Source of the DNA: a virus
Taxonomy: Duplodnaviria > Caudoviricetes
DNA: 64,000 bases
Virus record (IMG/VR): IMGVR_UViG_3300031555_001562
Reading direction: 5' to 3' (one strand)
Shown in pieces: positions 7,824-38,860 of this stretch; the stretch's first letter is position 1, and the number at the start of each line of letters is the position of its first letter. The notes beneath the pieces were generated by a model. That model made no database searches. It was not told where the DNA came from and worked only from the letters and a program-made list of their open reading frames with translations. A program made the position numbers and the translations under genes.

Positions 7824-8291
7824 TTACAGCTTGCAGATCAGAATTTCAATGTCTTCGCCAGAGAAAACATCGTCAATCAGATCCATAACCTGATCCCATT
7901 CCAGCTTATCCAGGCCGCAGCCGATCAGGGGCATTGCCAGCTTGGTAATACTCAGATCGATACACTGATCGTGCATGTCACACAGGGTCTCATACAGATC
8001 AGAGTATGTAGGCTTGTGGAAGTATCTGGGCTTGGAAACAAGATTGAACACATTGTCAACAAGCAGTGCCTTGCCAACATTTGCATACTTGCAACCATCG
8101 GGGATGGGATGGAACTTATGCAGCTTAAAGCGCATATTGTAGATCTCGTTAAAGGTCTTTGCAATGCCAGCGCCCAGTGCATAGTCGCCACTGATGCAGT
8201 GTGCCAGGTAATAACCCTGTGGAACCTCAAAGAGATTACCATTGATTTCAGTGATAGTCATAATGACCTCCAAATTATTCTGTTTTGACAC
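7824..8291 (-). CDS. Macrodomain protein (TARG1/DarG-like)
   Basis: GNLF, LAHCISGD.ALGAGIA..F, NLVSK, LAMP.IGCGLDKLEW. Confidence 0.9.
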   Translation of the reverse strand: MSKQNNLEVIMTITEINGNLFEVPQGYYLAHCISGDYALGAGIAKTFNEIYNMRFKLHKFHPIPDGCKYANVGKALLVDNVFNLVSKPRYFHKPTYSDLYETLCDMHDQCIDLSITKLAMPLIGCGLDKLEWDQVMDLIDDVFSGEDIEILICKL

Positions 8292-9215
8292 CTATATATT
8301 CCAATACTTCTTTCATTCCCAGTCCACCGCTTTCCCACGGTTTCATACAGTAATTCCAAAGTTTTGGATGGGTGACTTTTAATTGTTGAAAACGATTTGG
8401 TTCTTTCTCAAGATGACATCCGAATCCACAAAATACACATCCTGTGCGATGGCATCCGGTTGTCTTAAATTTACCATTCTTATCCCGAACAATGTCTCCA
8501 TATACAGATGCATATGGAATATTGAATCTTTTTAAGTATTCAAGGATATCTTGCTCTTTCCAAAAGGATAGAGGCTGAGAATACTGTTCCTTGCCCTTGA
8601 AGACGTTGCAACCGTTATTAAGCCATTTTTGTTTTCTATTCTGGCTTTCGCTTGCCATTGTTCCGAAAATTGGTTTTAGACCAGTTTCTTTCGCAAACTT
8701 TTGATTTGGCTCCTTCTTCATCTTATGACAGCAGTAGTCAGAAGTTTTGAATGGAGCATCGATCAGAAATGCCCATTTGCCATTTCCACCAAACATTGTA
8801 TTCTGGACTTCTCCACGAATATATTTAGCTCGCATGCAATTAGGATTTCTTTTTGCGCTTGAAATATATCCAGCAATTCTCTTGCTAACTATTGGGTATC
8901 CGAACGTCTCAATGACTTTTCTAAAGTTCATACTCGGTTTAAGCCATATTACGTTGTCAATTGTTTTCACAAACTCTCGCAATTCGGGATATTCCAATCC
9001 TGTATCAATGAACACAGCAGGAACGTCTGGATATATTCTACGAACCAGGTCTAAGAGGACTGTAGAATCCTTCCCCCTGAGAAAGACACATAAACCTTGC
9101 CTTGGTTCTTTATATACCATTCCATGATTCTTGTCTGCGTAACTTGAATTTTGCGCTCAAGGCTCCAGGATTGCATTATCCGCAAATCTTCATTTGTGTA
9201 TTTCATTTCTCTCAT
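8275..9215 (-). CDS. PAPS-reductase-family protein, frameshifted at G5 (9073-9077)
   Basis: Upstream frame MREMKY...VYVSFSGG joins downstream KDSTVLL only if G5 becomes G6, restoring the SFSGGKDS PP-loop; CC..MKK and RTGCVFC present. Confidence 0.85.
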
Positions 9216-19762: not shown

Positions 19763-20042
19763 TTTCTATTTCCTCTATTCCAAGTTCTTCCATGAAATAA
19801 CGAATTAATTGAAATGACCCAGCACGCAGAGAATAAAGATGATCCTTTGCAAGATCAGTTCCGGTATATTTGTCATACCACTTGTCTTCGTTTTTCTTCA
19901 CAAAATCATAGATCTTGCTAAGTTTCTCAACAAGTTTCTTTTTATCTGCAACTGCTTTTGCAAATTCGCATGTGGTATCGCATTCTTCGTTATAGTTCTT
20001 TCCAGACCTGAGATAGCAATGCTCATAGCATGGGTTAAACAT
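19752..20042 (-). CDS. Hypothetical protein
   Basis: Likely start MFNPC; Cys-rich N-terminus. Confidence 0.5.
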   Translation of the reverse strand: MFNPCYEHCYLRSGKNYNEECDTTCEFAKAVADKKKLVEKLSKIYDFVKKNEDKWYDKYTGTDLAKDHLYSLRAGSFQLIRYFMEELGIEEIENDD

Positions 20043-21207
20043 TGTTTGATTCTCCTGAAAGATCAAAATACTGTTGTGCGATATCCGGGAACAGTGCTTC
20101 AACACGTTCCATTTCTCGCCAATCGGATCCTTTGATGCCGATATCTTTCAAATAACCATCAATGTCTCTCTTGTACTTTGTGTATCCATTGCGGCGCATT
20201 CCCTTGCATTTGCAGAACAATCTGAAGGAGAATGTCTTAAACATGTGCGGCTGATTGCACCAGCTTGCCACGGAAGAATAGAACGTCGAGAACTCTGAAT
20301 CATAGACTTTCTCAAAGCGCATAATGTATGGCTTTGCATCAAATCTACTCAGAATTGAAATTCTCTCAAAGAGATTTCGAATATCGTTTTCCCAGAATTC
20401 CATGTCATATTTGCCGTTCTTATCGCAGCCGCAGAATACATAGAACTTCAGCTGACGTTTCCATTCCGGAACTGTTTCTCGGATTAATTGCAATTTAGAT
20501 GTAATCAGCTCTTTGTCTTCAATGTTATCGAATGCAAAGATAACTTCACCGTCATACTTCCAACTTGCAATTTCAAGAATCTTTTCCTTTGTCAACAGTC
20601 TTTCATCAAGACCTTGCTTGAAGTGGAATCGTCTTCCGGTATCTATGACCGGCTGAATTAATTCTCGCCACTTTGGGTATCCAAGGAAGTTATCATCCAG
20701 GAAGCAGATCTTTGGCCTTGTTGGGTCATAGAACTCTGCCAATGGACTTGCTGGTTCCACTTTCTTGTAATTCCTGTTTACGCAGTAATAACAACCACGG
20801 AAGCATTTCCTTGTTAAGTAACCAATTGAGTAATCAAGATAGTATTTGAAGTTGTTCCGATTCTCCCCCCTAGCGAAAATCGCTTCATTAACCCAATCAT
20901 CATATAGGTGATAATCCGGCATAATGTGTTCGATCTCTGGTGGGAGAGGTGGAGCATTATCGTAAAAGAATCCTGTGCCGCCATACGTGACATTTGGCAT
21001 CGCAAGTACATCTTCAGGCACATGCGTCTTCGTGAAAACCTTTGAGATGTAAACTTTGTCAAACGCTTGCAGACCTTCGTAGTCAGTCTTCAACTGGACA
21101 CTATCTCCGTTCTGCTTGTGATATGCGGCAATTTTCATTGAACACAGATTAGGGAATCTGTGTTTGTTTTTGCCGATAATCTCGGCATCGATAATTGCTA
21201 CATTCAT
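20035..21207 (-). CDS. Radical SAM protein
   Basis: TRKCFRGCYYC (CxxxCxxC), LDDNFL, QGLD.RL. Confidence 0.85.
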   Translation of the reverse strand: MNVAIIDAEIIGKNKHRFPNLCSMKIAAYHKQNGDSVQLKTDYEGLQAFDKVYISKVFTKTHVPEDVLAMPNVTYGGTGFFYDNAPPLPPEIEHIMPDYHLYDDWVNEAIFARGENRNNFKYYLDYSIGYLTRKCFRGCYYCVNRNYKKVEPASPLAEFYDPTRPKICFLDDNFLGYPKWRELIQPVIDTGRRFHFKQGLDERLLTKEKILEIASWKYDGEVIFAFDNIEDKELITSKLQLIRETVPEWKRQLKFYVFCGCDKNGKYDMEFWENDIRNLFERISILSRFDAKPYIMRFEKVYDSEFSTFYSSVASWCNQPHMFKTFSFRLFCKCKGMRRNGYTKYKRDIDGYLKDIGIKGSDWREMERVEALFPDIAQQYFDLSGESNNV

Positions 21208-21403
21208 CGTTGTTTCCTAATTCATTTTCAACATCAGATATTTCTAATATCAGATTGTCTTTTTGAACCGTTGTCAGTGCATTGACTAAACCATCGAATC
21301 TAGGTTCAAGTTGTTGCTTTGTAGGTTTCTCCCCCCGGCCACGCATGGCTACGGTTAAACAATTTCGCATTGTCAATTCACTTTCCATTATTGATTTCTT
21401 CAA
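21149..21403 (-). CDS. Stand-alone methyltransferase TRD-like mini-protein (in frame across G6)
   Basis: AMRGR..QQLEPR.DG..N.LTTVQKDNLILE resembles variable-region modules of phage C5-MTases; start uncertain. Confidence 0.6.
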   Translation of the reverse strand: MKKSIMESELTMRNCLTVAMRGRGEKPTKQQLEPRFDGLVNALTTVQKDNLILEISDVENELGNNDECSNYRCRDYRQKQTQIP

Positions 21404-21901
21404 AAATGATCTGCTTCGGGAGAAATTTACTGCAAATATACACGCTGCTAAAAGGTGGGTTTAGAGATGGTTTTTGTTCTTCATAACTCCTGAAGTATGC
21501 AATGCGTTTATTCATATACATAATTTCAAAGTCATTGTTTTTGAAGAGATCGAATCTGTGTCTACTCTCAAACAGGCCAACAACGCCTACCAGCATAGCA
21601 AACGGTTTTCCAATCTCGAACAGCCTCTCCAATACCTTGCCTTTAACTGAGTATGGTGGATTACTGATTATGTAATCGCATTTAGGCGGATCCATTTCAA
21701 AGAAATCCTGACCATTAGCAATGTGCGTCGCAATTACCGTAAATCCAGCCTCCCGGAACAGCTTTACGAATAAGCTTTCTTCTGTGTCAAAAGGACACCA
21801 GATCGTGCCGGGGGTGTAATATATTTCATCACTGGTTCAATTGCATAACCAGGAGTATAGAACTCATCGTTACCGCTTCCGGCAACTTTGTCCATTTTCA
21901 T
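21378..21901 (-). CDS. N6-adenine DNA methyltransferase, frameshifted at C5 (21810-21814)
   Basis: MKMDK..NDEFYTP..ITPP joins GTIWCPFD...SNPPY only with one extra C. Confidence 0.8.
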
Positions 21902-21913
21902 ACTGTACCCTCT

Positions 21914-22696
21914 TTACACTAAGCCCCATTCTGCGAATTTCTCAAATCCGCCCATAGAGCCGATATAGTTTCTAGCAATCTCCACGATCTTATCGTAAGG
22001 GATGCCATTTACGTATTCATCTCCAATTGCGCAAAACAATTCTACTGGCTTTCTTGTTCTCTGAGCCTCAAGCCATGCATAAATGTTGACACTAACATCT
22101 GCTTTGCTGAGATCTTTACCATGCAAACCGCCGCCAGTAACGGAGTCAGCCATATCACTGCCAAGCTTCCGATTCGTTGCGCCACTATCGACATCCGTTC
22201 CGCCAGTCCAATCGCCAAGAGGATTGACAATTGCGTTTGGATATTTGGCCTTCAGATCATCGCTATCTGCGTTGCTCTGGCATATAATGAGTTGGCTTCC
22301 GTTCATGATGTACTTGCCATCATACGGATAGTCAGCATAAATTGCTTTTGCAATATTGGACATGTTGTTTTGTTCAACGGTAACTGGCATACCTTTGAAA
22401 ATGCCATTATCACCGCAACGAATGCATTTTTCCTGATTTCTTGCAAGATGTACATCCTGCGGAATGATCCGAAGATCTACTGCTATATTTCCTGCGATAC
22501 GAGTAATAGCTGCAATTACATAGTCATGGTCTAAGTCCACAGACGTTTCAGCAATGACATGGCATACACCATGACCGATAAGCACTTCTACTGCAATCTT
22601 AGGATTGTCTTGAGCCTTATAAGCAAGATCAACTATTGCACCAGCAATACGATCTGCAATTTTGTCCGGATGAGACGGATTTACTTTTTCAAACAT
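21914..22696 (-). CDS. metK: S-adenosylmethionine synthetase (short phage type)
   Basis: HPDKIAD.I, GDNG, GG...DSGATNRK, GGGLHGKD.SKAD. Confidence 0.9.
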   Translation of the reverse strand: MFEKVNPSHPDKIADRIAGAIVDLAYKAQDNPKIAVEVLIGHGVCHVIAETSVDLDHDYVIAAITRIAGNIAVDLRIIPQDVHLARNQEKCIRCGDNGIFKGMPVTVEQNNMSNIAKAIYADYPYDGKYIMNGSQLIICQSNADSDDLKAKYPNAIVNPLGDWTGGTDVDSGATNRKLGSDMADSVTGGGLHGKDLSKADVSVNIYAWLEAQRTRKPVELFCAIGDEYVNGIPYDKIVEIARNYIGSMGGFEKFAEWGLV

Positions 22697-22707
22697 GGTT
22701 TGTTTCC

Positions 22708-22840
22708 TTATCTTTCGATTAGCTTAAAGGCACTTCGTATTGAACTTGCACCAATATTGGTTGTGAGTGTTCCAATTGTTTCTTGATCTGCTCTAACTCT
22801 ACTATTGTAGTCATCGTAGATAATTACATCACGATTTGAC
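22708..22840 (-). CDS. TRD-like module reachable by -1 shift at C5 (22842-22846)
   Basis: Frame reads DVIIYDDYNSRVRADQETIGTLTTNIGASSIRSAFKLIER*. Confidence 0.55.
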
Positions 22841-23281
22841 CGGGGGTAAATTCAGTCTCAGTACCATCATTTTCGTTCTGGTTTATATCTTCATAGAGTC
22901 TGTCAAGCGCCTTTTCGATTGCGCCAATTCCTGAGAAGTAGCTGCCAACCTTGAGATCTTCAAACAGATACGGCATTGCTTTATACAGTTCTTTGAAGAT
23001 GAAATACGGAACAGAAACAACGATGCTGTTACCGGCTTGCTTGTATAACTGACTATTGCTAATTCCAGCAGCTTGAGCCTTATCGAAATCTTCATCTGTG
23101 AAATCCATCAAACGCCAACATTCTCTTGGTGTCAGCTTTCTAATACGATAACCAGCTGAAGAAGTGTTATTTTCAATCACTCGCTTGTCACCCCCGCATC
23201 GATGGTTCGGATTGCTCCTACGTAATCTCCTGAGAATACTCGCAATCCTTCATCGCATCTGCGTTCACATATTGCTTTCAT
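22824..23281 (-). CDS. C5-methyltransferase small subunit (TRD + motifs IX-X-I), frameshifted at G5 (23191-23195)
   Basis: IRKLTPRECWRLM (IX), LYKQAGNSIVV (X), then KVGSYFSGIGA (motif I) at the C-terminus; N-terminal MKAICERR..RTIDAGG joins with +1 G. Confidence 0.8.
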
Positions 23282-23450
23282 CTAATTCCTCATTCTTACT
23301 TTTGTTTTGGAATTGATCTGCTATCAAAATCCAATACTTAACACCTAAACCAGCCGTTAATGTTGGAGATACCCCCCCGGTCGAATAGACGGTATTGGAT
23401 TGATGCTTACCAGTTCCTTTTTCCAGATAGCCTAATTCTTCAATCTTCAT
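23265..23450 (-). CDS. TRD-like mini-ORF (in frame across G7 23372-23378)
   Basis: HQSNTVYSTGGVSPTLTA. Confidence 0.65.
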   Translation of the reverse strand: MKIEELGYLEKGTGKHQSNTVYSTGGVSPTLTAGLGVKYWILIADQFQNKSKNEELDESNM

Positions 23451-23639
23451 CTTTCTTAATCGGTTCAATAACCAAAATCATAGAGTTTTCAGCCATTAAA
23501 GTAGGACAAATTTGCCCCCGGCCTGAACTCGACCTCTACGGGTTTTTGATTTCGGAAAGCTGAAATCTGCAACTCCTGGTATTTCACATTCAATGTAACC
23601 TTGCTTAGTTGCCTGTTTAATTCTTATTGTCTCCGCCAT
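23440..23639 (-). CDS. TRD-like mini-ORF, frameshifted at G5 (23515-23519)
   Basis: GGAGG RBS; IKQATKQGYIEC..ADFSFPKSKTRRGRVQAGG|QICPTLMA. Confidence 0.65.
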
Positions 23640-23786
23640 GCTTAACCTCCACTAGAGTTTTCGGGGGTCTTTATGGCTGGTTGCAGAGATAGTACAAGAA
23701 ATACCATCAAGTGAATAAACACGTTCTCTTTGATGTTCTTTCCCGGTATTTGAGATTAAACAGCCAACAACGATAATTTCATTCAT
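23617..23786 (-). CDS. TRD-like mini-ORF, frameshifted at C5 (23663-23667)
   Basis: EHQRERVYSLDGISCTISATSHKDP|PKTLVEV. Confidence 0.65.
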
Positions 23787-23934
23787 TGCTTTCTATAACC
23801 CCATTCATAGGTTGATTCCCAAATCCTTTGTAATCTCTGGCAAGTAAGGTATTTGCAACATCAATTTCTCTTTCAAATTTACCGCATTGGTTCGAAAACA
23901 AACCAGCGGTTAACTCTCTTGAATGAGATCCCAT
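23779..23934 (-). CDS. TRD-like mini-ORF
   Basis: DVANTLLARDYKGFGNQPMNGVIE. Confidence 0.65.
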   Translation of the reverse strand: MGSHSRELTAGLFSNQCGKFEREIDVANTLLARDYKGFGNQPMNGVIESNE

Positions 23935-24757
23935 TGATGTTTGTCTACACTGCATCTGCCCCCGTGCGAATTGCATTTGAGACAGTCTTGTTTAGCTTGC
24001 CACTTACAATCAGATCTTCTACAAGTTCTTTTGCCTTCGGAGTATTGATATAGAATGACTCATCTACATCATCTTCCAGAACATCTCTTAGGCGCTTGCC
24101 ATTGTCGAATGGCTCTGGGAATGTAAATTTACCATTGTCAAAACTCTGCAAGATGATAATCAGATATACTCGTTCTCTGTTTTGTGGAACACCGTAATCT
24201 TTTGCATTGAGAACTTTGTAGTATGTGTTGTAGCCGTATTCATGTAGTTCATCAATGAACATATCGAAAGTTTCTTTGAATGACTTGCCGACAATATTCT
24301 TGACATTCTCATAAATACCCCACACGGGTTTGTTTGCACGAATGATCCGAAGCCACTCTACTAGCAGTGAGCTTCTTGTCTTGTCAAGATTCTCACTATT
24401 GCAATTAGGACACTTGTGCCGCTCTGACCAATGGACAGTTAGCGGATTATACTCATGACCACAATCCTTGCACTTCCACTTGCTGCCAGCCTGTTTGCCA
24501 GCAACACTGAAGTCCTGGCATGGGCTGCCGCCGCAGATCATATTGAATGGGTTTAGTTTGGTCTCATCTACTTTTGTGATGTCGCCAAGATTTAGGCTTT
24601 TGTCAACGCCATGCACTGCGCAGTAGCTCGTCTCAGCAAATCTATCAAATTCGCAGAAGTTTACGAGTTCATAGCCGCTATGGGTTGAAGTATTGTTTTT
24701 ATCAGTATTTGACATTACTTTCCTACCATTTTCCTGCGGTTTTATATCGATTTTCAC
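23910..24757 (-). CDS. C5-methyltransferase catalytic subunit (motifs II-VIII, no motif I); terminal TRD frameshifted at G5 (23959-23963)
   Basis: GGSPCQDFS (IV), YENV (VI), PQNRERVY (VIII); CxxC/CxxC insert; stops at 23945 as written, +1 G extends it to RTGGRCSVDKHQWDLI. Confidence 0.85.
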
Positions 24758-24854
24758 CCATTTTCAAGAGAAAAGCATTTAGTTCATCGAATTCCAAACA
24801 TCGAAACTATCGCATGTTCCTCTCGTAAAAAACAGATAAAAACAATATTTGATT

Positions 24855-25418
24855 TCACTTATCTACTTCGTTTCCAAAGGCATCCCAACCAGATCGAGAA
24901 CGTCTAGAATACATTTCTAGTCGCTTCACCCCCGGATATAGCGATTCCATAATTTCGTATGAAATCTCCGGCTTCTGGCTATGTGCCTTTACTTTCTCTG
25001 TGAATACGGTATGAATCTTGCCTCTCATGTCTGTTGCGACAGGCAGAAGCTTGCCCTTGTACATGTAAAGCAAATACTCGTGACCATACCTGACCGTGAA
25101 CGCCGCCGGAATCCCGGTGACTTTGTTCCAGATCATTCTTGCATGCAGCTTGTACCCAAGCTTCTCAGCAATCTCCTGAGCCTCGAACAAGTACTTATCA
25201 ATCGTCCATAGAAATAAGATACTGTTATCTTTCGTGTGTTCAGTTGCGACTCTGAGATGTTCTTCAATCACATCTAAGCTGCATGTTTGGTAGTCTAGAG
25301 GCGTTCCGCTGCTATTCTTACGAACAGACTTCTTTCCGCCCTTAGACTGTTTCCAAGGCGGATCAGCACAAATCAAATCGTACTGATCGCCAATATCGTG
25401 GATATTTTCAAAGATCAT
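24855..25418 (-). CDS. MT-A70 family adenine methyltransferase
   Basis: ADPPW, LFLWT, HSQKP, LEMYSR..GWDAFGNE. Confidence 0.9.
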   Translation of the reverse strand: MIFENIHDIGDQYDLICADPPWKQSKGGKKSVRKNSSGTPLDYQTCSLDVIEEHLRVATEHTKDNSILFLWTIDKYLFEAQEIAEKLGYKLHARMIWNKVTGIPAAFTVRYGHEYLLYMYKGKLLPVATDMRGKIHTVFTEKVKAHSQKPEISYEIMESLYPGVKRLEMYSRRSRSGWDAFGNEVDK

Positions 25419-26728
25419 TCTGAATCCTCTGAAATCAGAGACTCTGCCTCTTCCATGTCGGGTGCATCAGAGTTGTCCTTGATAATTCCCTCCAGAACCT
25501 TGAAGCAGAAGCCCTTTGCCTTGAAAGCAGTGAACTTGCTCCGGTTATCGATTCTGACAACTACACCTTCAGCGATGTGGGTTCCGTTTGCCAGAGGTTC
25601 AGGGATATCCAGCCACTTCTCGACACGCTCATTCAGGTCTTCCCAAGTGGTGTACAGGAATTTATCAACCAGAGGAACATACTCACATCCGAGCCGTTCA
25701 CACCACTTCATAGTCTCTTCAGTGGGCAGCTCAACGGTAATACCGTCCTCATTAGTCATAGTGATCCGGTACAGATAGCACTTGTTCTCGCCAGGAGCGC
25801 AGCCATATGTAAACACGGTTTCAGAACCGTACTGCTTGCTGAAAGCTTTGTCCTTCAGCTTGGAATTACTGCATCTGGGCATGATCGGGGTGGACTCATT
25901 GACCCAGCCAACAATCTCGCCGTATACAGTCATTCCCTTTGGTAGCTTTCCAATGAAGAAGTCATTGTACTTCTTGCGGAATTCGTTGGAGCCGTAGAAA
26001 CCTCCATCAAAGGATCTCAGGACAACTCTTCGAGTACCGCTTACAATCTCATACTTCTTGGAAACTCTGTCAGGAACATGGAATACTTTCTTGATGAACC
26101 AGTGCGGCTTTTTGGTAGTAACCTCAAGGCAGTTGGATACACGGAAAGACGTTCCATGAAGCTTACGGGTCAGATAGATGATATCACCCTCTCTGAATTC
26201 CCTCTGGTTATATGCAAGCTGTTCGGTGTCGATATGTTCTGTAAAGAACGGATAGGCAATCTTCTGATTCTCTTCCTTCTTGTTCTTGGATGGCTTTACA
26301 CTGGTATTGGTTCTTCTCTGCGTAGTACGAGGAATGTACTTTTTGCAGATTTCATGACCATCTAGTTCTGTAATCTGTTCACCATCTCTAAGCTGGTCAA
26401 CATCTGTGTACTTGGAAAGAACTGCGATTGGCAGAACCAGGCCGTCAGACTTCTCTCCACGAAGCATGAGTGCCTTAATGTTTCTCTTATCGGGATCAAG
26501 ATAACCACCGACGTTATTACCATTCTCGTCCTTTTTACGAACCAGATTGTTGTCATTTGCAAATTCAACGCTCAACTGACCATCCACAGGGAAATAGATT
26601 ACTCGATCCCCCGCAGCGTAGGACATGTCAACGATTACATTGCTTCCAAAAATGGTTGCACACTGAAGGCGATCAGCATTGCTATGCTTGCGAAGTTCTT
26701 TGATTGTAGTGATATATGCGCAATACAT
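25415..26728 (-). CDS. RNA ligase (Rnl2-like) with N-terminal OB/tRNA-binding domain
   Basis: HSNADRL...LRGEKSDG N-terminus; RKLHGT (I), YGEI (III), EGVV (IV), FKAK (V). Confidence 0.85.
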   Translation of the reverse strand: MYCAYITTIKELRKHSNADRLQCATIFGSNVIVDMSYAAGDRVIYFPVDGQLSVEFANDNNLVRKKDENGNNVGGYLDPDKRNIKALMLRGEKSDGLVLPIAVLSKYTDVDQLRDGEQITELDGHEICKKYIPRTTQRRTNTSVKPSKNKKEENQKIAYPFFTEHIDTEQLAYNQREFREGDIIYLTRKLHGTSFRVSNCLEVTTKKPHWFIKKVFHVPDRVSKKYEIVSGTRRVVLRSFDGGFYGSNEFRKKYNDFFIGKLPKGMTVYGEIVGWVNESTPIMPRCSNSKLKDKAFSKQYGSETVFTYGCAPGENKCYLYRITMTNEDGITVELPTEETMKWCERLGCEYVPLVDKFLYTTWEDLNERVEKWLDIPEPLANGTHIAEGVVVRIDNRSKFTAFKAKGFCFKVLEGIIKDNSDAPDMEEAESLISEDSE

Positions 26729-34262: not shown

Positions 34263-34657
34263 TTCGATTCCTCCTGTTTGATAGGCGGCTCAGGCATTGG
34301 TTTCCAATGTGTGACACAGCAACTACCGATCTTTGACCAGTACCAGCCGTAGTCATCGCCGCCGTATTTTCGCTGTCTAAACTGAGAAACCAGCTTACCA
34401 TTCTTATATGGTGGGTGCGCCACAATGCAATTAATTACTTTCTTGCCCTTGTTTTCAGGCATGTCCTCCGGTAACATCTCAGATATCGGAATCCACCGCT
34501 CAATGGTTACGCCTTTTGAAATAAGGTGGTCGGCAACTTCTTCATTCCACACTTCATCGTCAAGCCGTATCCCATGTCGCTCATGCTCTGTATATCCAGC
34601 GCCGTGTCTTTGAACATCGTTCAAAATTTCAATTAGTTGTTCTCTTATTTTATCCAT
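34259..34657 (-). CDS. DUF551-like phage protein
   Basis: WIPISE.LPE ... VTHW.PMPEPP. Confidence 0.75.
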   Translation of the reverse strand: MDKIREQLIEILNDVQRHGAGYTEHERHGIRLDDEVWNEEVADHLISKGVTIERWIPISEMLPEDMPENKGKKVINCIVAHPPYKNGKLVSQFRQRKYGGDDYGWYWSKIGSCCVTHWKPMPEPPIKQEESK

Positions 34658-35220
34658 TGTTCCTCGGATGGTTTTTCAAGAGGACGATAGTATGTACCAA
34701 CAGTACCATCCCATGCAGACCATATTACTTCCATTGTTGGGCTACCGGATTTCTGACCATACAGAAAATCAGGTCTCCATGTAAGCGGTAACACATAGGA
34801 CGGTGCATCATTTCGGAACATATTGATTCTGGATTTTGCATGCCAGAATTGGGATTTCAGCAGGAATGCGCAATTTGTGTTGAGATCACGTGCATGCTGA
34901 ATAAACTCCGCCGCCTTTGAAAACGGAGGATTAGTAATGATCCAGTCACAATCTCTTTGAGATTCAAGAAAATCTACACCAGATTCACCATAACCAAAGT
35001 CATTGAGATCTGTACAGATTACTTCATAACCTCGTCTCTTCAGCACTTCTGCAAGCTTGCCAGCTCCGCATGCAGGTTCCCATACCTTTGCTCCCGGATG
35101 TAGTGAACCATTCGCCTCTAGAAAATCAATTAATGCTACAGTCGCCAGGGGGGGTGTCTCATAGAAATCCACCTGGTTACGATCCTTGGCTGATCTGTTA
35201 GCCAAAATATTGCCGTTCAT
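34645..35220 (-). CDS. N6-adenine/N4-cytosine DNA methyltransferase (in frame across C7)
   Basis: DFYETPP, WEPACGAG, IITNPPF. Confidence 0.85.
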   Translation of the reverse strand: MNGNILANRSAKDRNQVDFYETPPLATVALIDFLEANGSLHPGAKVWEPACGAGKLAEVLKRRGYEVICTDLNDFGYGESGVDFLESQRDCDWIITNPPFSKAAEFIQHARDLNTNCAFLLKSQFWHAKSRINMFRNDAPSYVLPLTWRPDFLYGQKSGSPTMEVIWSAWDGTVGTYYRPLEKPSEEQWIK

Positions 35221-35963
35221 CTTCTTTTGTCCTCTAACCATTTGTTATCGATGTAGTAGAATCCAGCCACCAAGCAGCCGGTAAAGAACACCCAGAACAC
35301 CCAGAAGATAGCGACAGAACCATCGGTCAATTTAGACTCAAGTGTTTCTGCAATCGTCATATAATCATACATGTTTGTCGCAGTAATAGTATTGTCTCCT
35401 AGCTTCGTATAAATCGTGCCAACGCTATAGGTTGGCGCTCCGTTATACACATATCTGACCTTACTGGATTCTTTGATTGTCGCAATATGGCTCTTATACG
35501 GAAAATCGATCATGCCATAGTCGAACTCAACGTCCAAGAAAGTAATTTTCTCAGAATGCTTCTTCCACGAATCGGCATAATCCCAAGAGTAATATACTTC
35601 CTCTTCTGTGTATGTTACGGTTTTACCGTCTACAGTTTTTGTCTTTGTAACAGTTCTGGTGTGCCTCGTATACTTTTCTTTGATTTTCTCGACATACGAA
35701 TACTCTCCGCCGATTTCATCAAATGTAACAGTATCGACTGCCTTCAACTCACCGTATACGAAAGCATTACCAACATTCGTTTTCATACCGTATTCAAACA
35801 GATCTTTGTCATTATCAATCTTGACTGCGGTATTAAACTCTTGTTGCCGTTCCATAACTGTATCATTGATCCCGTCTGCAATGATTACTCCAAACAGGAT
35901 CATGACACATACAATGACAATACTGACCAAAACTTCCCGTTTGGTGATTGTCATATCATACAT
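35217..35963 (-). CDS. Two-TM membrane protein
   Basis: Hydrophobic helices at both ends; paired with LemA. Confidence 0.7.
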   Translation of the reverse strand: MYDMTITKREVLVSIVIVCVMILFGVIIADGINDTVMERQQEFNTAVKIDNDKDLFEYGMKTNVGNAFVYGELKAVDTVTFDEIGGEYSYVEKIKEKYTRHTRTVTKTKTVDGKTVTYTEEEVYYSWDYADSWKKHSEKITFLDVEFDYGMIDFPYKSHIATIKESSKVRYVYNGAPTYSVGTIYTKLGDNTITATNMYDYMTIAETLESKLTDGSVAIFWVFWVFFTGCLVAGFYYIDNKWLEDKRR

Positions 35964-36918: not shown

Positions 36919-37556
36919 AGGCTGTCGAATGAGGCGACATCAACAACACCGCTGGCCTTGTAGTCAGAGGTGATCTTAGACATAGTGGAATACACGGAAC
37001 CGATGCCTCTGGAATTTGCGCTGTAGGACTTTGCATAATCCAGGTTGATGCCGATGCCACCGGCAACTTCCTCAACGTCGATATTTGCGCCCAGGAAGAT
37101 AAACTGCCAGCTGTACTTGTTGGTCTGATGCTCGATCATTTCCTTTACCTTGCGCTGGCTGTACTCTCGGCTGGCGTTCTCCATGCCATCAGTGGTAATG
37201 ACAAAAATGATCTTGGAAGGTCTTTCATCTTCAGCAGTGTTGCTCAGTCTATGACCAACATCATTGATGGTCTTGCCGATTGCGTCATACAGTGCGGTGC
37301 AACCACGAGGCCAATAGTCCTTGGTGGTCATGGGAGCAACATCATGAACGTTCACGCCATTGTGCAGGATCTCGTATTCATGGTCAAACAGAACAGTGGT
37401 CAGTTTGGTCTCGCCAGGATCCTTTTTCTGTTCCTCGATGAAGGCATTGTAACCGCCGATAGTATCGTTGGTCAGACCAGCCATAGAGCCGCTTCTGTCG
37501 AGAATGAAAATGACTTCGCTTAGATTGGGATTCATTATCTTATTTCCTTTCTTCAT
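36912..37556 (-). CDS. von Willebrand factor A domain protein
   Basis: ILDRSGSM MIDAS, TALYDAIG, ITTDG.ENAS. Confidence 0.9.
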   Translation of the reverse strand: MKKGNKIMNPNLSEVIFILDRSGSMAGLTNDTIGGYNAFIEEQKKDPGETKLTTVLFDHEYEILHNGVNVHDVAPMTTKDYWPRGCTALYDAIGKTINDVGHRLSNTAEDERPSKIIFVITTDGMENASREYSQRKVKEMIEHQTNKYSWQFIFLGANIDVEEVAGGIGINLDYAKSYSANSRGIGSVYSTMSKITSDYKASGVVDVASFDSLC

Positions 37557-38860
37557 ATCTCACTTTGTTGGGTTGCTTTTATACTGTTTAATAAATGGGA
37601 GATTACAGATACCGTCCATCCATTTCCGAGCATCTTATATGCTTGTGTGTCTGAGACAGGGAACTCGTACCATTCAGGGACAGTCTGGAGGCGCATGCAC
37701 TCGCTGACAGTCAGCTTTCGGATGATATAGTGTCCATCTTCCAACTTAATGGGATACTGCTTATTATTAATGGTGATTTCACCATCTTTGACTTTGTAAA
37801 CGGAGTATGCCTTTCCGTCAGTATCGCATACCGAATCGGCTGGAACTCCGTCTGTAAATTCTACCGGGACAGCATAGAGACCAGTTTTAGCACCCATGCC
37901 ACCACCGTTGCCGCAAAGAGTGTCACGCTTTGCGGCAACGGAATAGATTCTGTATTGCTGCGAATCGTGCGCCTGATTTTTCGCCTTGTTAGGCCAAGTG
38001 CCTACTCGCACAGGTTCTGCAACTCCGCTTTGAGGGTAATGGCCTCCGCCATTCACAAAATTCGCAAATGCAGACTTATAATAATTTGCTTTGATCGCAA
38101 AACTCTTATCTCCGTCTACAACATTTACGGGAGCTGCCGCCATTGTTCTATTCGATCTCGCATGTCCCTTTTCCAGAAATGTTTCCGGTGATCCTGGCGT
38201 CTTCCAGTAATTTGCGTCCAAACAATAACTTTTGTCTTCAGCTGTATTACTGTAGCCGAATGCGCTGTCAAGCACATCTTGAAGTAGGATACCACGATCA
38301 TTTGGTAATTGAACATCTACTTTGCTATACGTTCCATCTTCGTTGCGCTTTCCAACCCAGTACAATCTCTGTCTGTGCTGTGCGGAAACCAAAGAGGAAT
38401 TTATACAAATAGGTTCGAAACCAAAGGTTTGATTAATACTCCCCCGGATAGCTCTGGACATAGATTTGTTATTTTCATAGATGAAGTACTTAGGCTGCGC
38501 TTCATCTAATGCCTTCACATAGCGGCAGAACAGTTCCCAGCCCATGCCACTTGCTTCGGTCTCTCTGTTGCTCTTCTGAGCAATAGACCAGTATGTACAA
38601 GGAGATCCGCCCATCAGAATATCGAATCCTTTATACTGTGCAAAGTCAGCTTCGAACACATCTCCCATATGCTCGATGAACGGGAAGTTGTGGGAAGTAG
38701 TCTGCACAGCATATTTATCGATCTCATATGCGACGTATCTGCCTACTTTGATCCCAGCCTCGATCAGTGCCAGCATTGCACAGGCCATACCGTCAAAGAG
38801 GCTGAGGATCTTTAAGCCGTCCGGAGTTAAAAGAACTTTTTTATTGCTGTTGCAATTCAT
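37553..38860 (-). CDS. C5-cytosine DNA methyltransferase, single chain, several TRD-like repeats
   Basis: LSLFDG (I), GGSPC (IV), YEN (VI), Q.R.R (VIII), RKLT..ECMRLQ (IX), GNGW (X). Confidence 0.92.
   Translation of the reverse strand: MNCNSNKKVLLTPDGLKILSLFDGMACAMLALIEAGIKVGRYVAYEIDKYAVQTTSHNFPFIEHMGDVFEADFAQYKGFDILMGGSPCTYWSIAQKSNRETEASGMGWELFCRYVKALDEAQPKYFIYENNKSMSRAIRGSINQTFGFEPICINSSLVSAQHRQRLYWVGKRNEDGTYSKVDVQLPNDRGILLQDVLDSAFGYSNTAEDKSYCLDANYWKTPGSPETFLEKGHARSNRTMAAAPVNVVDGDKSFAIKANYYKSAFANFVNGGGHYPQSGVAEPVRVGTWPNKAKNQAHDSQQYRIYSVAAKRDTLCGNGGGMGAKTGLYAVPVEFTDGVPADSVCDTDGKAYSVYKVKDGEITINNKQYPIKLEDGHYIIRKLTVSECMRLQTVPEWYEFPVSDTQAYKMLGNGWTVSVISHLLNSIKATQQSEI

What the first reader, a model, noticed from the sequence alone, without database searches (positions are those of the whole stretch)
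22708..24757. Split, circularly permuted C5-methyltransferase with a cassette of free-standing target-recognition mini-genes
Seen: 24757-23945 has motifs II-VIII (PCQ, ENV, QNRER) but no motif I. 23180-22824 has IX, X and then motif I (YFSGIGA) at its C-terminus. Between and after them lie short ORFs with overlapping start/stops (23779-23934, 23617-23786, 23440-23639, 23265-23450, 23191-23281, 22708-22840; one more at 21149-21403). Most carry a TL/TI core typical of C5-MTase target recognition domains (NTLLARDYKG, CTISAT, CPTLMA, SPTLTA, GTLTTN, NALTTVQKDN). Established: multispecific Bacillus phage MTases string several TRDs between motifs VIII and IX in one chain, and two-subunit and permuted C5-MTases exist. 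The intact MTase at 37553-38860 shows the fused layout. Inference: here the TRDs are separate 45-65 aa peptides that could plug in trans into a two-chain catalytic core, giving a mix-and-match anti-restriction methylome.
Basis: partly seen in the sequence, partly recalled or inferred. Interest (0 to 1): 0.88.

Follow-up and report, generated by a model that had tools for sequence, protein, structure and literature searches.

The report
Poly-G-switched modular phage cytosine methyltransferase
A 164-kb gut-type phage encodes its DNA cytosine methyltransferase as separate pieces: two catalytic chains plus several tiny genes for DNA-recognition modules. Slippery runs of G or C probably decide which modules are made, and so which DNA sequences the phage methylates.

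Summary
The sequence facts hold. 24715-23945(-) has C5-MTase motifs II-VIII plus a Zn ribbon but no motif I. 23180-22824(-) has motifs IX, X and then I. TRD-like short frames lie between and after them.

- The II..X,I order is family-wide and also occurs in single-chain relatives.
- Five breaks sit at G5/C5 runs. Their lengths vary (G5-G9) among 93-98% identical phages from independent metagenomes. Adding one base at two runs gives a 191-aa chain identical to a natural protein (P0131).
- With every run in frame, alpha, beta and three mini-ORFs (56, 66, 61 aa) still remain separate.

Evidence on the mini-ORFs:
- ORF5 keeps its ATG, its G-run and dN/dS 0.03-0.22 in lineages with saturated synonymous sites.
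- The ORF4 module is fused to beta in another phage.
- A structure model docks ORF5 at the canonical TRD site (0.82; best control 0.00). This may only reflect likeness to solved one-chain enzymes.

Best reading: a multi-chain, phase-variable, multispecific MTase, mostly switched off in this genome. Action of the free TRDs in trans is inferred, not shown.

This scan has already noted the same system in other genomes. I found no published description in the searched library.

The parts
23945..24715 (-). alpha chain: motifs II-VIII with a Zn ribbon and no motif I. In this phase it ends ..NAIRTGADAV* with no TRD attached. An upstream in-frame GTG lies at 24757.
   Evidence: PF00145 E 1.8e-44. 69-77% identical to relatives. 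Coordinates.
23959..23963 (-). Switch T1 (G5). G5 gives a stop; G6 fuses TRD-a (..GGR.SVDKHQWD..); G7 fuses TRD-b through a dual-coded linker.
   Evidence: Simulated edits. The orthologous run is G5, G6 or G7 in 93-97% identical loci. The same three outcomes occur in other lineages.
23910..23960 (-). TRD-a frame (GRCSVDKHQWDLIQES*), read only with G6.
   Evidence: The alpha ORF carries this module in 15 related loci.
23779..23934 (-). TRD-b module (..ANTLLARDYKGFGNQ..). It is fused to alpha with G7, or open from the ATG at 23934.
   Evidence: Core peptide LLARDYKGFGNQ is identical in all lineages. pN/pS 0.14-0.21 in its own frame. Fused to alpha in 5 loci.
23652..23786 (-). ORF3, a TRD mini-gene (..GISCTISA..). 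Its ATG overlaps the preceding stop (ATGAATGA). The C5 run at 23663-23667 cuts off the last strand; C6 extends it to 23617.
23440..23639 (-). ORF4, a TRD mini-gene (MAETIRIKQATKQGY..TRRGRVQAGG | QICPTLMA..). It has a strong SD (GGAGG) and is broken at the G5 run 23515-23519. G6 gives 66 aa.
   Evidence: The run is G7 in L001. The same module is fused to beta in L032 and free-standing in L031. phrog_16427 E 5.6e-6.
23265..23450 (-). ORF5, an intact 61-aa TRD mini-gene (..GKHQSNTVYSTGGVSPTLTAG..WILI..) with an in-frame G7 run at 23372-23378.
   Evidence: Stand-alone homologs exist with the same start. dN/dS 0.03-0.22. Weak match to the M.MpeI TRD, residues 306-329. Docks between alpha and beta in the model.
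23177..23281 (-). Start of beta with TRD-c (MKAICERRCDEGLR..TIDAG). SD is GAGG. It is cut at the G5 run 23191-23195.
   Evidence: The run is G6 in L034/L035 and G9 in L001.
22824..23180 (-). Beta core: motifs IX, X and then motif I. Its GTG start overlaps the TGA of the cut upstream frame (GTGA).
   Evidence: PF00145 E 6e-11. Relatives L004, L007 and L008 have an ATG with AAGGAG at this same position. At least 7863 clusters of stand-alone beta-like chains exist.
22708..22846 (-). Tail TRD (..IIYDDYN..TIGTLTTNIG..) behind the C5 run 22842-22846. C6 fuses it to beta.
   Evidence: C6 in all eight near relatives. With +1 at both runs, beta equals natural protein P0131, 191/191 residues.
21149..21370 (-). 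Outlying TRD-like mini-ORF (..RFDGLVNALTTVQKDNLILE..) with a G6 run at 21331-21336. It lies beyond the SAM synthetase and N6-MTase genes.
   Evidence: Matches the C-terminal tail of single-chain P0046, E 2e-9. Coordinates.

Best explanation
This is a multi-cistronic, phase-variable, multispecific C5 cytosine methyltransferase of a large phage.

Two chains carry the catalytic fold. Alpha has motifs II-VIII. Beta has motifs IX, X and the AdoMet-binding motif I, which has moved to the C-terminus. They must assemble, as in two-subunit M.AquI.

DNA specificity comes from about eight short TRD modules:
- TRD-a or TRD-b can be fused to the end of alpha.
- TRD-c, and a tail module, can be fused to beta.
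- ORF3, ORF4, ORF5 and the outlying 21149-21370 ORF are separate mini-genes.

Runs of G or C, placed at Gly-Gly or Pro-Pro codons of the modules, change length by slipped-strand mispairing. Each run shifts its module into or out of frame. The first run chooses between TRD-a, TRD-b or none. A phage population would therefore carry many different methylation repertoires, which hedges against host restriction systems.

What is shown:
- the architecture;
- its conservation;
- the run-length polymorphism;
- purifying selection on the modules.

What is inferred:
- that the mini-genes are translated;
- that a free TRD fills the vacant TRD site between alpha and beta in trans;
- that each module gives a different target sequence.

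In this genome five of the six runs in the locus are one base short. Only ORF5 is a complete module, so the locus is largely off, or reduced to one specificity.
For: Architecture is conserved.
- Of 26 related loci, all but L026 have the gene in several frames (L017 is cut off by its contig end).
- L032 has a 350-aa SAM synthetase gene between alpha and beta, so these two must be separate chains.
- Stand-alone beta-like chains form at least 7863 clusters.

The runs are hypermutable.
- In nine genomes with 156 substitution columns over 2078 aligned columns, four poly-G runs vary: G5-7, G5-7, G6-9 and G7-9.
- Genome pairs 97.5-99.2% identical differ at these runs.
- Among 93-97% identical loci the window's own runs read G5/6/7, G5/7, G5/6/7, G5/6/9, C5/C6 and C5/C7.
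- Adding one base at two runs gives exactly natural protein P0131.

The runs are not a by-product of coding.
- G/C runs of 5 or more occur at 2.12 per kb inside the locus and 0.18 per kb in the flanks.
- GGG is 5% of Gly codons. Only 2 of 116 Gly-Gly pairs in long ORFs give a run of 5 or more G.
- The single-chain relatives have no such run.
- ORF5 keeps its G7/G8 run in lineages where pS is 0.56-0.76.

The modules are under selection.
- pN/pS is 0.03-0.21 in each module's own frame, with no stops.
- ORF5 has dN/dS 0.03-0.22.

The mini-genes look like separate cistrons.
- With all runs set in frame, ORF3, ORF4 and ORF5 remain separate.
- They have an ATG and usually an SD site.
- ORF5 homologs start at the same Met.
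- The ORF4 module is free-standing here and in L031, but fused to beta in L032.
- Some beta chains start at motif IX with their own SD and ATG and carry no TRD.

Docking model.
- Alpha + beta core + ORF5 scored 0.82, best of 3 controls 0.00. This mark was reached by 58 of 80 solved complexes and 2 of 110 mismatched pairs.
- The runs agree in at least 81% of contacts, and partner pLDDT is at least 68.
- The SPTL loop touches QNRER (motif VIII). The WILI strand pairs with the motif IX strand.
Against: - There are no expression, protein or methylome data.
- No C5-MTase with free TRD subunits is known; TRDs are normally joined covalently on both sides.
- The docking pass may come from the model's memory of one-chain MTase structures. 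The job also used my own alignments and three chains, unlike the calibration set.
- SD sites before ORF3 and ORF5 are weak.
- Reinitiation of beta at GTG 23180 is only inferred.
This could instead mean decay towards stable G5 states.
- I have no structural explanation for how modules placed after motif I would reach the TRD site.
Confidence: 0.6

Rival explanations
1. It is a two-subunit enzyme only. Alpha and beta assemble and use just the TRDs fused to them in cis, chosen by the G runs. The free mini-ORFs between and after them are not used as proteins. They are spare modules kept by recombination with other phages, or recently detached.
For: - M.AquI is a precedent for two chains (PMC5944983).
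- TRD-a/b sit on alpha and TRD-c on beta.
- Module content differs strongly between close relatives, which fits frequent module exchange.
- SD sites are weak before ORF3 and ORF5.
Against: - ORF5 keeps the same start codon, its stand-alone status and dN/dS 0.03-0.22 across lineages with saturated synonymous sites.
- The mini-ORFs carry their own G runs near functional motifs, and strong SD sites occur before ORF4 and the L019 delta ORF.
- Some beta chains have no cis TRD.
Confidence: 0.2
2. In this particular genome the locus is a decaying or silenced gene. The G6/C6 runs have contracted to the more stable G5/C5, and the methyltransferase, the N6-MTase and the PAPS-reductase-like gene are simply off or being lost.
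For: - Seven G5/C5 runs in modification genes all need +1 (note e1-5761130).
- T1 is also G5 in L001 and L040.
- The window is the only one of nine loci with C5 at 22846.
Against: - No stop or indel lies outside the runs within modules.
- The modules are identical or near identical to in-frame natural variants.
- The family-wide pattern is switching, not loss.
- 'Off in this genome' is compatible with the main explanation.
Confidence: 0.12
3. A single long chain, like the bacterial relatives, is made from this DNA by programmed ribosomal frameshifting or transcriptional slippage at the G/C runs and at the overlapping stop/start sites.
For: - All breaks at runs need the same +1 nt correction in this genome.
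- One-chain relatives exist.
Against: - Run lengths are not conserved, and in-frame genotypes exist.
- After correcting every run, five separate ORFs remain.
- The non-run junctions have no slippery motif that I could recognise (my reading).
- L032 has a whole SAM synthetase gene between alpha and beta.
Confidence: 0.04
4. The frameshifts are homopolymer errors of sequencing or assembly.
For: All are at G/C runs and all are one base short.
Against: - Long ORFs elsewhere are intact despite 59 A/T runs of 6-7 bases.
- The longer G6, G7 and C7 runs are in frame.
- The same polymorphism recurs in dozens of independent metagenome assemblies (Logan, ENA, JGI, IMG/VR).
- Three junctions are not at runs at all.
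Confidence: 0.04

Closest known systems
Multispecific C5-MTases of Bacillus phages (M.SPRI, M.Phi3TI and relatives)
   Same: They are phage enzymes with one catalytic core and several short, independent TRD modules in a row, each giving one target. The phi3T MTase is among the best matches in the phage database, at about 35% identity.
   Different: - Those are single chains with canonical motif order I-X and no repeat switches.
- Here the core is split in two and motif I is at the C-terminus.
- Modules lie in different frames or in separate cistrons, and G/C runs gate them.
M.AquI, a natural two-subunit C5-MTase
   Same: The catalytic fold is divided in the variable region between motif VIII and motif IX into two polypeptides that must assemble (PMC5944983).
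   Different: M.AquI has two chains, canonical motif order, one specificity and no switches. Here there are extra TRD-only cistrons, a permuted motif I and phase-variable runs.
Natural circularly permuted C5-MTases (M.BssHII, M.Alw26I, M2.Eco31I, M.Esp3I, M2.BsaI)
   Same: The motif order differs from I-X by a circular shift.
   Different: Those are all permuted in the variable region, with IX and X before I-VIII. A 2018 REBASE survey found no other natural topology (PMC5944983). Here the break lies between motifs I and II, giving the order II..X, I.
Simple-sequence-repeat contingency loci in restriction-modification genes (phase-variable Type III mod genes; hsdS genes with homopolymer runs)
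   Same: Homopolymer runs inside the coding sequence change length and shift the frame. This switches the methyltransferase on or off, or changes its specificity.
   Different: Those are bacterial, mostly N6-adenine enzymes, with one repeat per gene. Here a phage C5-MTase locus carries four to eight runs, and one run selects between two overlapping TRD frames.
Type I HsdS specificity subunits
   Same: This is a functional analogy only: specificity resides in a separate, exchangeable polypeptide.
   Different: There is no sequence or fold relation. The analogy depends on the unproven trans action of the TRD mini-proteins.

Membership tests
DNA (cytosine-5) methyltransferase, PF00145 | Catalytic motifs IV (PCQ), VI (ENV) and VIII (QxRxR) | tested here: met
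   GGSPCQDFS, YENVKN and PQNRER in 24715-23945(-). PF00145 E 1.8e-44.
DNA (cytosine-5) methyltransferase, PF00145 | Motifs IX and X, and AdoMet-binding motif I (FxGxG) | tested here: met
   RKLTPRE, GNSIVV and YFSGIGA in 23180-22824(-), on a second chain and in the order IX, X, I.
DNA (cytosine-5) methyltransferase, PF00145 | Methyl transfer to C5 of cytosine | not testable with these tools
   No biochemical or methylome data.
Type H circularly permuted C5-MTases (M.BssHII group) | New N-terminus in the variable region; motifs IX-X precede I-VIII | tested here: not met
   The order is II-VIII, TRDs, IX, X, I in the window and in single-chain relatives P0061, P0093 and P0046.
Two-subunit C5-MTase (M.AquI type) | Core split between motif VIII and motif IX into two separately encoded chains | tested here: met
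   Alpha and beta are separate ORFs in all but one of 26 loci. An unrelated gene lies between them in L032.
Two-subunit C5-MTase (M.AquI type) | The two chains assemble into an active enzyme | not testable with these tools
   Only the TRD partner was scored in the complex job. Alpha and beta folded with pLDDT 82.
Multispecific phage C5-MTases | Several TRD modules in tandem between motifs VIII and IX | tested here: met
   About six modules lie between VIII and IX, with two more after motif I. They are homologous to the modules of one-chain P0093 and P0046.
Multispecific phage C5-MTases | All modules in one polypeptide with the core | tested here: not met
   Five separate ORFs remain even with all runs in frame.
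SSR contingency (phase-variable) locus | A repeat tract inside the ORF whose length sets the reading frame | tested here: met
SSR contingency (phase-variable) locus | Tract length polymorphic among otherwise near-identical genomes | tested here: met
SSR contingency (phase-variable) locus | Reversible high-frequency switching within a clonal population | not testable with these tools

The most novel reading that the evidence does not exclude
This is a C5 cytosine methyltransferase built like a Type I system. A two-chain catalytic core accepts any one of several free-standing 45-70-aa specificity subunits in trans. Each subunit has its own translation start and its own poly-G on/off switch. A single phage genotype would then generate a combinatorial set of methylomes.
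Probability: 0.45. Interest if true: 0.85.

Novelty: new variant of a known kind. Interest (0 to 1): 0.72.

Why it matters
- **Phage counter-defence.** Phase variation of methylation specificity is known from bacterial pathogens as a way to vary defence and gene regulation. Here the same trick appears on the phage side, as a counter-defence device. It is common in gut metagenomes, with thousands of beta-chain clusters.
- **Enzyme architecture.** If the free TRD modules work in trans, this would be the first C5-MTase with exchangeable specificity subunits.
- **Engineering.** It would offer a compact natural scaffold for programmable cytosine methylation.
- **Annotation.** These loci look like pseudogenes to gene callers. 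Their fragments are scattered over many 'hypothetical protein' clusters.

Tried and rejected
- **AlphaFold2 of single-chain relative P0061.** I ran it with a 30-row alignment to check the permuted fold. It gave pLDDT 44 and pTM 0.31, which is unusable, so I made no fold search.
- **Phage collection searches.** Megablast of 20000-26000 against the phage collection found nothing. The protein search found only canonical MTases below 45% identity.
- **Family searches on the mini-ORFs.** Pfam finds nothing in them. PHROGs matches only ORF4. The PDB profile search with ORF5 gave only a weak hit (E 0.17) to the M.MpeI TRD.
- **Stop-codon reassignment.** I considered and dropped this, because the breaks are frameshifts, not in-frame stops.
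- **Split intein.** I considered and dropped this. The relatives' intein is a complete insertion at the catalytic Cys, and the window has none.
- **Introns.** I considered and dropped these, because the coding pieces abut or overlap without gaps.
- **Literature.** Searches for a phase-variable phage C5-MTase, for a II..X,I permutation and for an MTase intein found no description in the held library. This is not proof that none exists.
Full report
**1. What is in the sequence**

All parts are on the minus strand.
- ORF 24757/24715-23945 carries C5-MTase motifs II-VIII: PCQ, ENV and QNRER. A four-cysteine zinc ribbon is inserted after PCQ, and there is no motif I (PF00145 E 1.8e-44).
- ORF 23180-22824 carries motifs IX and X, and then ..VGSYFSGIGA.. 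(motif I) near its C-terminus.
- Between them, and after the second ORF, lie short frames. tblastn with full-length relatives matches these piece by piece in changing frames.
- 37553-38860(-) is an ordinary one-chain C5-MTase.
- The window lies on a single 163,674-bp contig.
- Neighbouring genes are MT-A70, RNA ligase, a CCA-adding enzyme, a SAM synthetase-like gene, an N6-MTase, a radical SAM protein and a PAPS-reductase-like gene. Together they look like the modification island of a large phage.

**2. The permutation is a family trait**

The database holds thousands of relatives.
- Single-chain members have the same order in one polypeptide: II-VIII, several TRD modules, IX, X, I. Examples are P0061 (486 aa), P0093 (576 aa, labelled Coprococcus) and P0046 (596 aa).
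- A 2018 survey of REBASE found natural permuted C5-MTases only with the break in the variable region (PMC5944983). The break here, between motifs I and II, is therefore a different natural topology.
- I could not confirm the fold by modelling, because AlphaFold2 gave pLDDT 44.

**3. The split is conserved**

- Of 26 related loci from Logan, ENA, JGI and IMG/VR (core 64-98% identical), all but L026 have the gene in several frames (L017 is cut off by its contig end).
- In L032 a complete SAM synthetase gene lies between alpha and beta. The two core parts must therefore be separate proteins.
- Stand-alone beta-like chains of 64-207 aa form at least 7863 clusters at 90% identity.

**4. Half of the breaks are hypermutable G/C runs**

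- The genome has 38 G/C runs of 5 or more bases. Six of them lie in the 1.12 kb from 23963 to 22842.
- Over 26 loci the density is 2.12 per kb inside the MTase locus and 0.18 per kb in the flanks. The runs reach G12.
- In nine closely related genomes, four poly-G runs vary by 1-3 bases.
- Pairs 97.5-99.2% identical over 7-14 kb differ at these runs.
- For the window's own runs, nine loci 93-97% identical read as follows:
  - 23963: G5, G6 or G7
  - 23519: G5 or G7
  - 23378: G5, G6 or G7
  - 23195: G5, G6 or G9
  - 22846: C5 in the window only, C6 in eight others
  - 21814 (N6-MTase): C5 or C7
- Adding one base at 23195 and at 22846 turns the window's two beta pieces and the tail module into a 191-aa protein. 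This protein is identical, 191 of 191 residues, to P0131, which is encoded on four metagenome contigs.
- The runs are not forced by coding:
  - GGG is 5% of Gly codons.
  - Only 2 of 116 Gly-Gly pairs in long ORFs give a run of 5 or more G.
  - The single-chain relatives have no such run.

**5. What the switches do**

- Run T1 sits in the Gly-Gly of ..IRTGGRGS.. at the end of alpha.
  - With G5, alpha stops at once.
  - With G6, it gains TRD-a (..DKHQWD..).
  - With G7, it reads the same DNA in another frame as a linker and gains TRD-b (..LLARDYKGFGNQ..).
- All three outcomes occur in nature. Alpha carries TRD-a in 15 loci, TRD-b in 5, and neither in 6 counting the window.
- Other runs complete or truncate ORF3 and ORF4, join TRD-c to beta, and join the tail module to beta.
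- In this genome every G5/C5 run in the locus is one base short; only the G7 run in ORF5 is in frame. The same is true of the N6-MTase (21810-21814) and the PAPS-reductase-like gene (9073-9077).

**6. Some modules are truly separate genes**

- With every run set in frame, the locus still encodes five separate products: alpha, ORF3 (56 aa), ORF4 (66 aa), ORF5 (61 aa) and beta (191 aa).
- Their starts overlap the preceding stops. ORF4 and beta have good Shine-Dalgarno sites (GGAGG and GAGG), while those of ORF3 and ORF5 are weak. Mini-ORFs in other lineages mostly have clear sites.
- ORF5 homologs stand alone with the same initiator Met down to 57% identity.
- In four lineages, synonymous sites of ORF5 are saturated (pS 0.56-0.76), yet dN/dS is 0.03-0.22 and the G7/G8 run is kept.
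- In group B, each module has pN/pS 0.03-0.21 in its own frame.
- The ORF4-type module is free-standing here and in L031, but fused to the N-terminus of beta in L032.
- In L004, L007 and L008, beta starts with AAGGAG plus ATG exactly where the window has GTG 23180, and it carries no TRD.

**7. Docking test**

I folded three of the window's own chains, each with an alignment: alpha (256 aa), beta core (118 aa) and ORF5 (61 aa).
- The partner scored 0.82, against 0.00 for the best of 3 controls. This mark was reached by 58 of 80 solved complexes and 2 of 110 mismatched pairs.
- The runs agree in at least 81% of contacts, and partner pLDDT is at least 68.
- ORF5 residues 21-37 (..VYSTGGVSPTLTAG..) touch alpha residues 177-181 (PQNRE, motif VIII). 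Residues 39-45 (YWILIAD) touch beta residues 10-16 (GYRIRKL, motif IX). This is the canonical TRD position.
- The result may reflect likeness to solved one-chain MTases. It does not show binding.
- A weak profile match (E 0.17) to the M.MpeI TRD, residues 306-329, points the same way.

**8. Reading**

The best-supported model is a multi-chain, multispecific C5-MTase whose set of recognition modules is set stochastically by slipped-strand changes in G/C runs.
- It is incomplete, because the phase switches and the cis-fused modules were missed.
- It is also unproven, because nothing shows expression, binding or specificity.
- The main rival is that only the cis-fused modules act.
- In this genome the locus is mostly in the off setting. 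This may be a transient phase, or the start of decay.

**9. Novelty**

- I found no description of this system in the library of papers I could search.
- The closest isolated-phage enzymes are canonical MTases below 45% identity, including phi3T.
- The scan has noted the same system repeatedly in other genomes. Those are unchecked AI notes. I did not count them as evidence, and they agree with what I measured here.

Noticed in passing
L001:6001-7773 (P0001); also P0003 and P0006: The closest relatives of alpha (76-98% identical) carry an intein of about 330 aa, some with a LAGLIDADG domain, inserted exactly at the catalytic Cys of the PCQ motif (..GGSP|C..intein..N|CQDFS). The window has the intein-free allele.
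   Followed up: partly
window 21378-21901 (-), run at 21810-21814: An N6-adenine MTase (DEFYTP..NPPY) is split at a C5 run. C6 restores a 175-aa ORF. Relatives have C5 or C7, so this looks like another switch.
   Followed up: partly
window 8275-9120 (-) and upstream, run at 9073-9077: A PAPS-reductase-like gene is broken in its SFSGGKDS motif at a G5 run. The ortholog in L001 is intact at 354 aa.
   Followed up: partly
window 34645-35241 (-), run at 35148-35154: A further DNA methyltransferase-like gene (phrog_799, E 9e-51) carries an in-frame C7 run in ..DFYETPP.., the longest C run in the genome. It is a possible additional phase switch.
   Followed up: no
window 20865-20870 in 20035-21207 (-): The radical SAM domain protein (phrog_9298, E 6.7e-51) has a G6 run that is G9 in L001. 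Both lengths are in frame, a difference of one Gly.
   Followed up: no
window 21914-22696 (-): The SAM synthetase-like gene is only 260 aa and matches only the N-terminal Pfam domain. L032 has a full three-domain 350-aa version in the same neighbourhood.
   Followed up: no
window 24420-24500 (-), alpha residues 82-105: A four-cysteine zinc ribbon (CKDC..CPNC) is inserted between motifs IV and VI. Its cysteines are invariant in all 23 aligned family members. Its function is unknown.
   Followed up: no
L030:2690-4060: A related locus carries about eight TRD modules in a row, each with a G7-G10 run. It is the most extreme version of the architecture I saw.
   Followed up: partly
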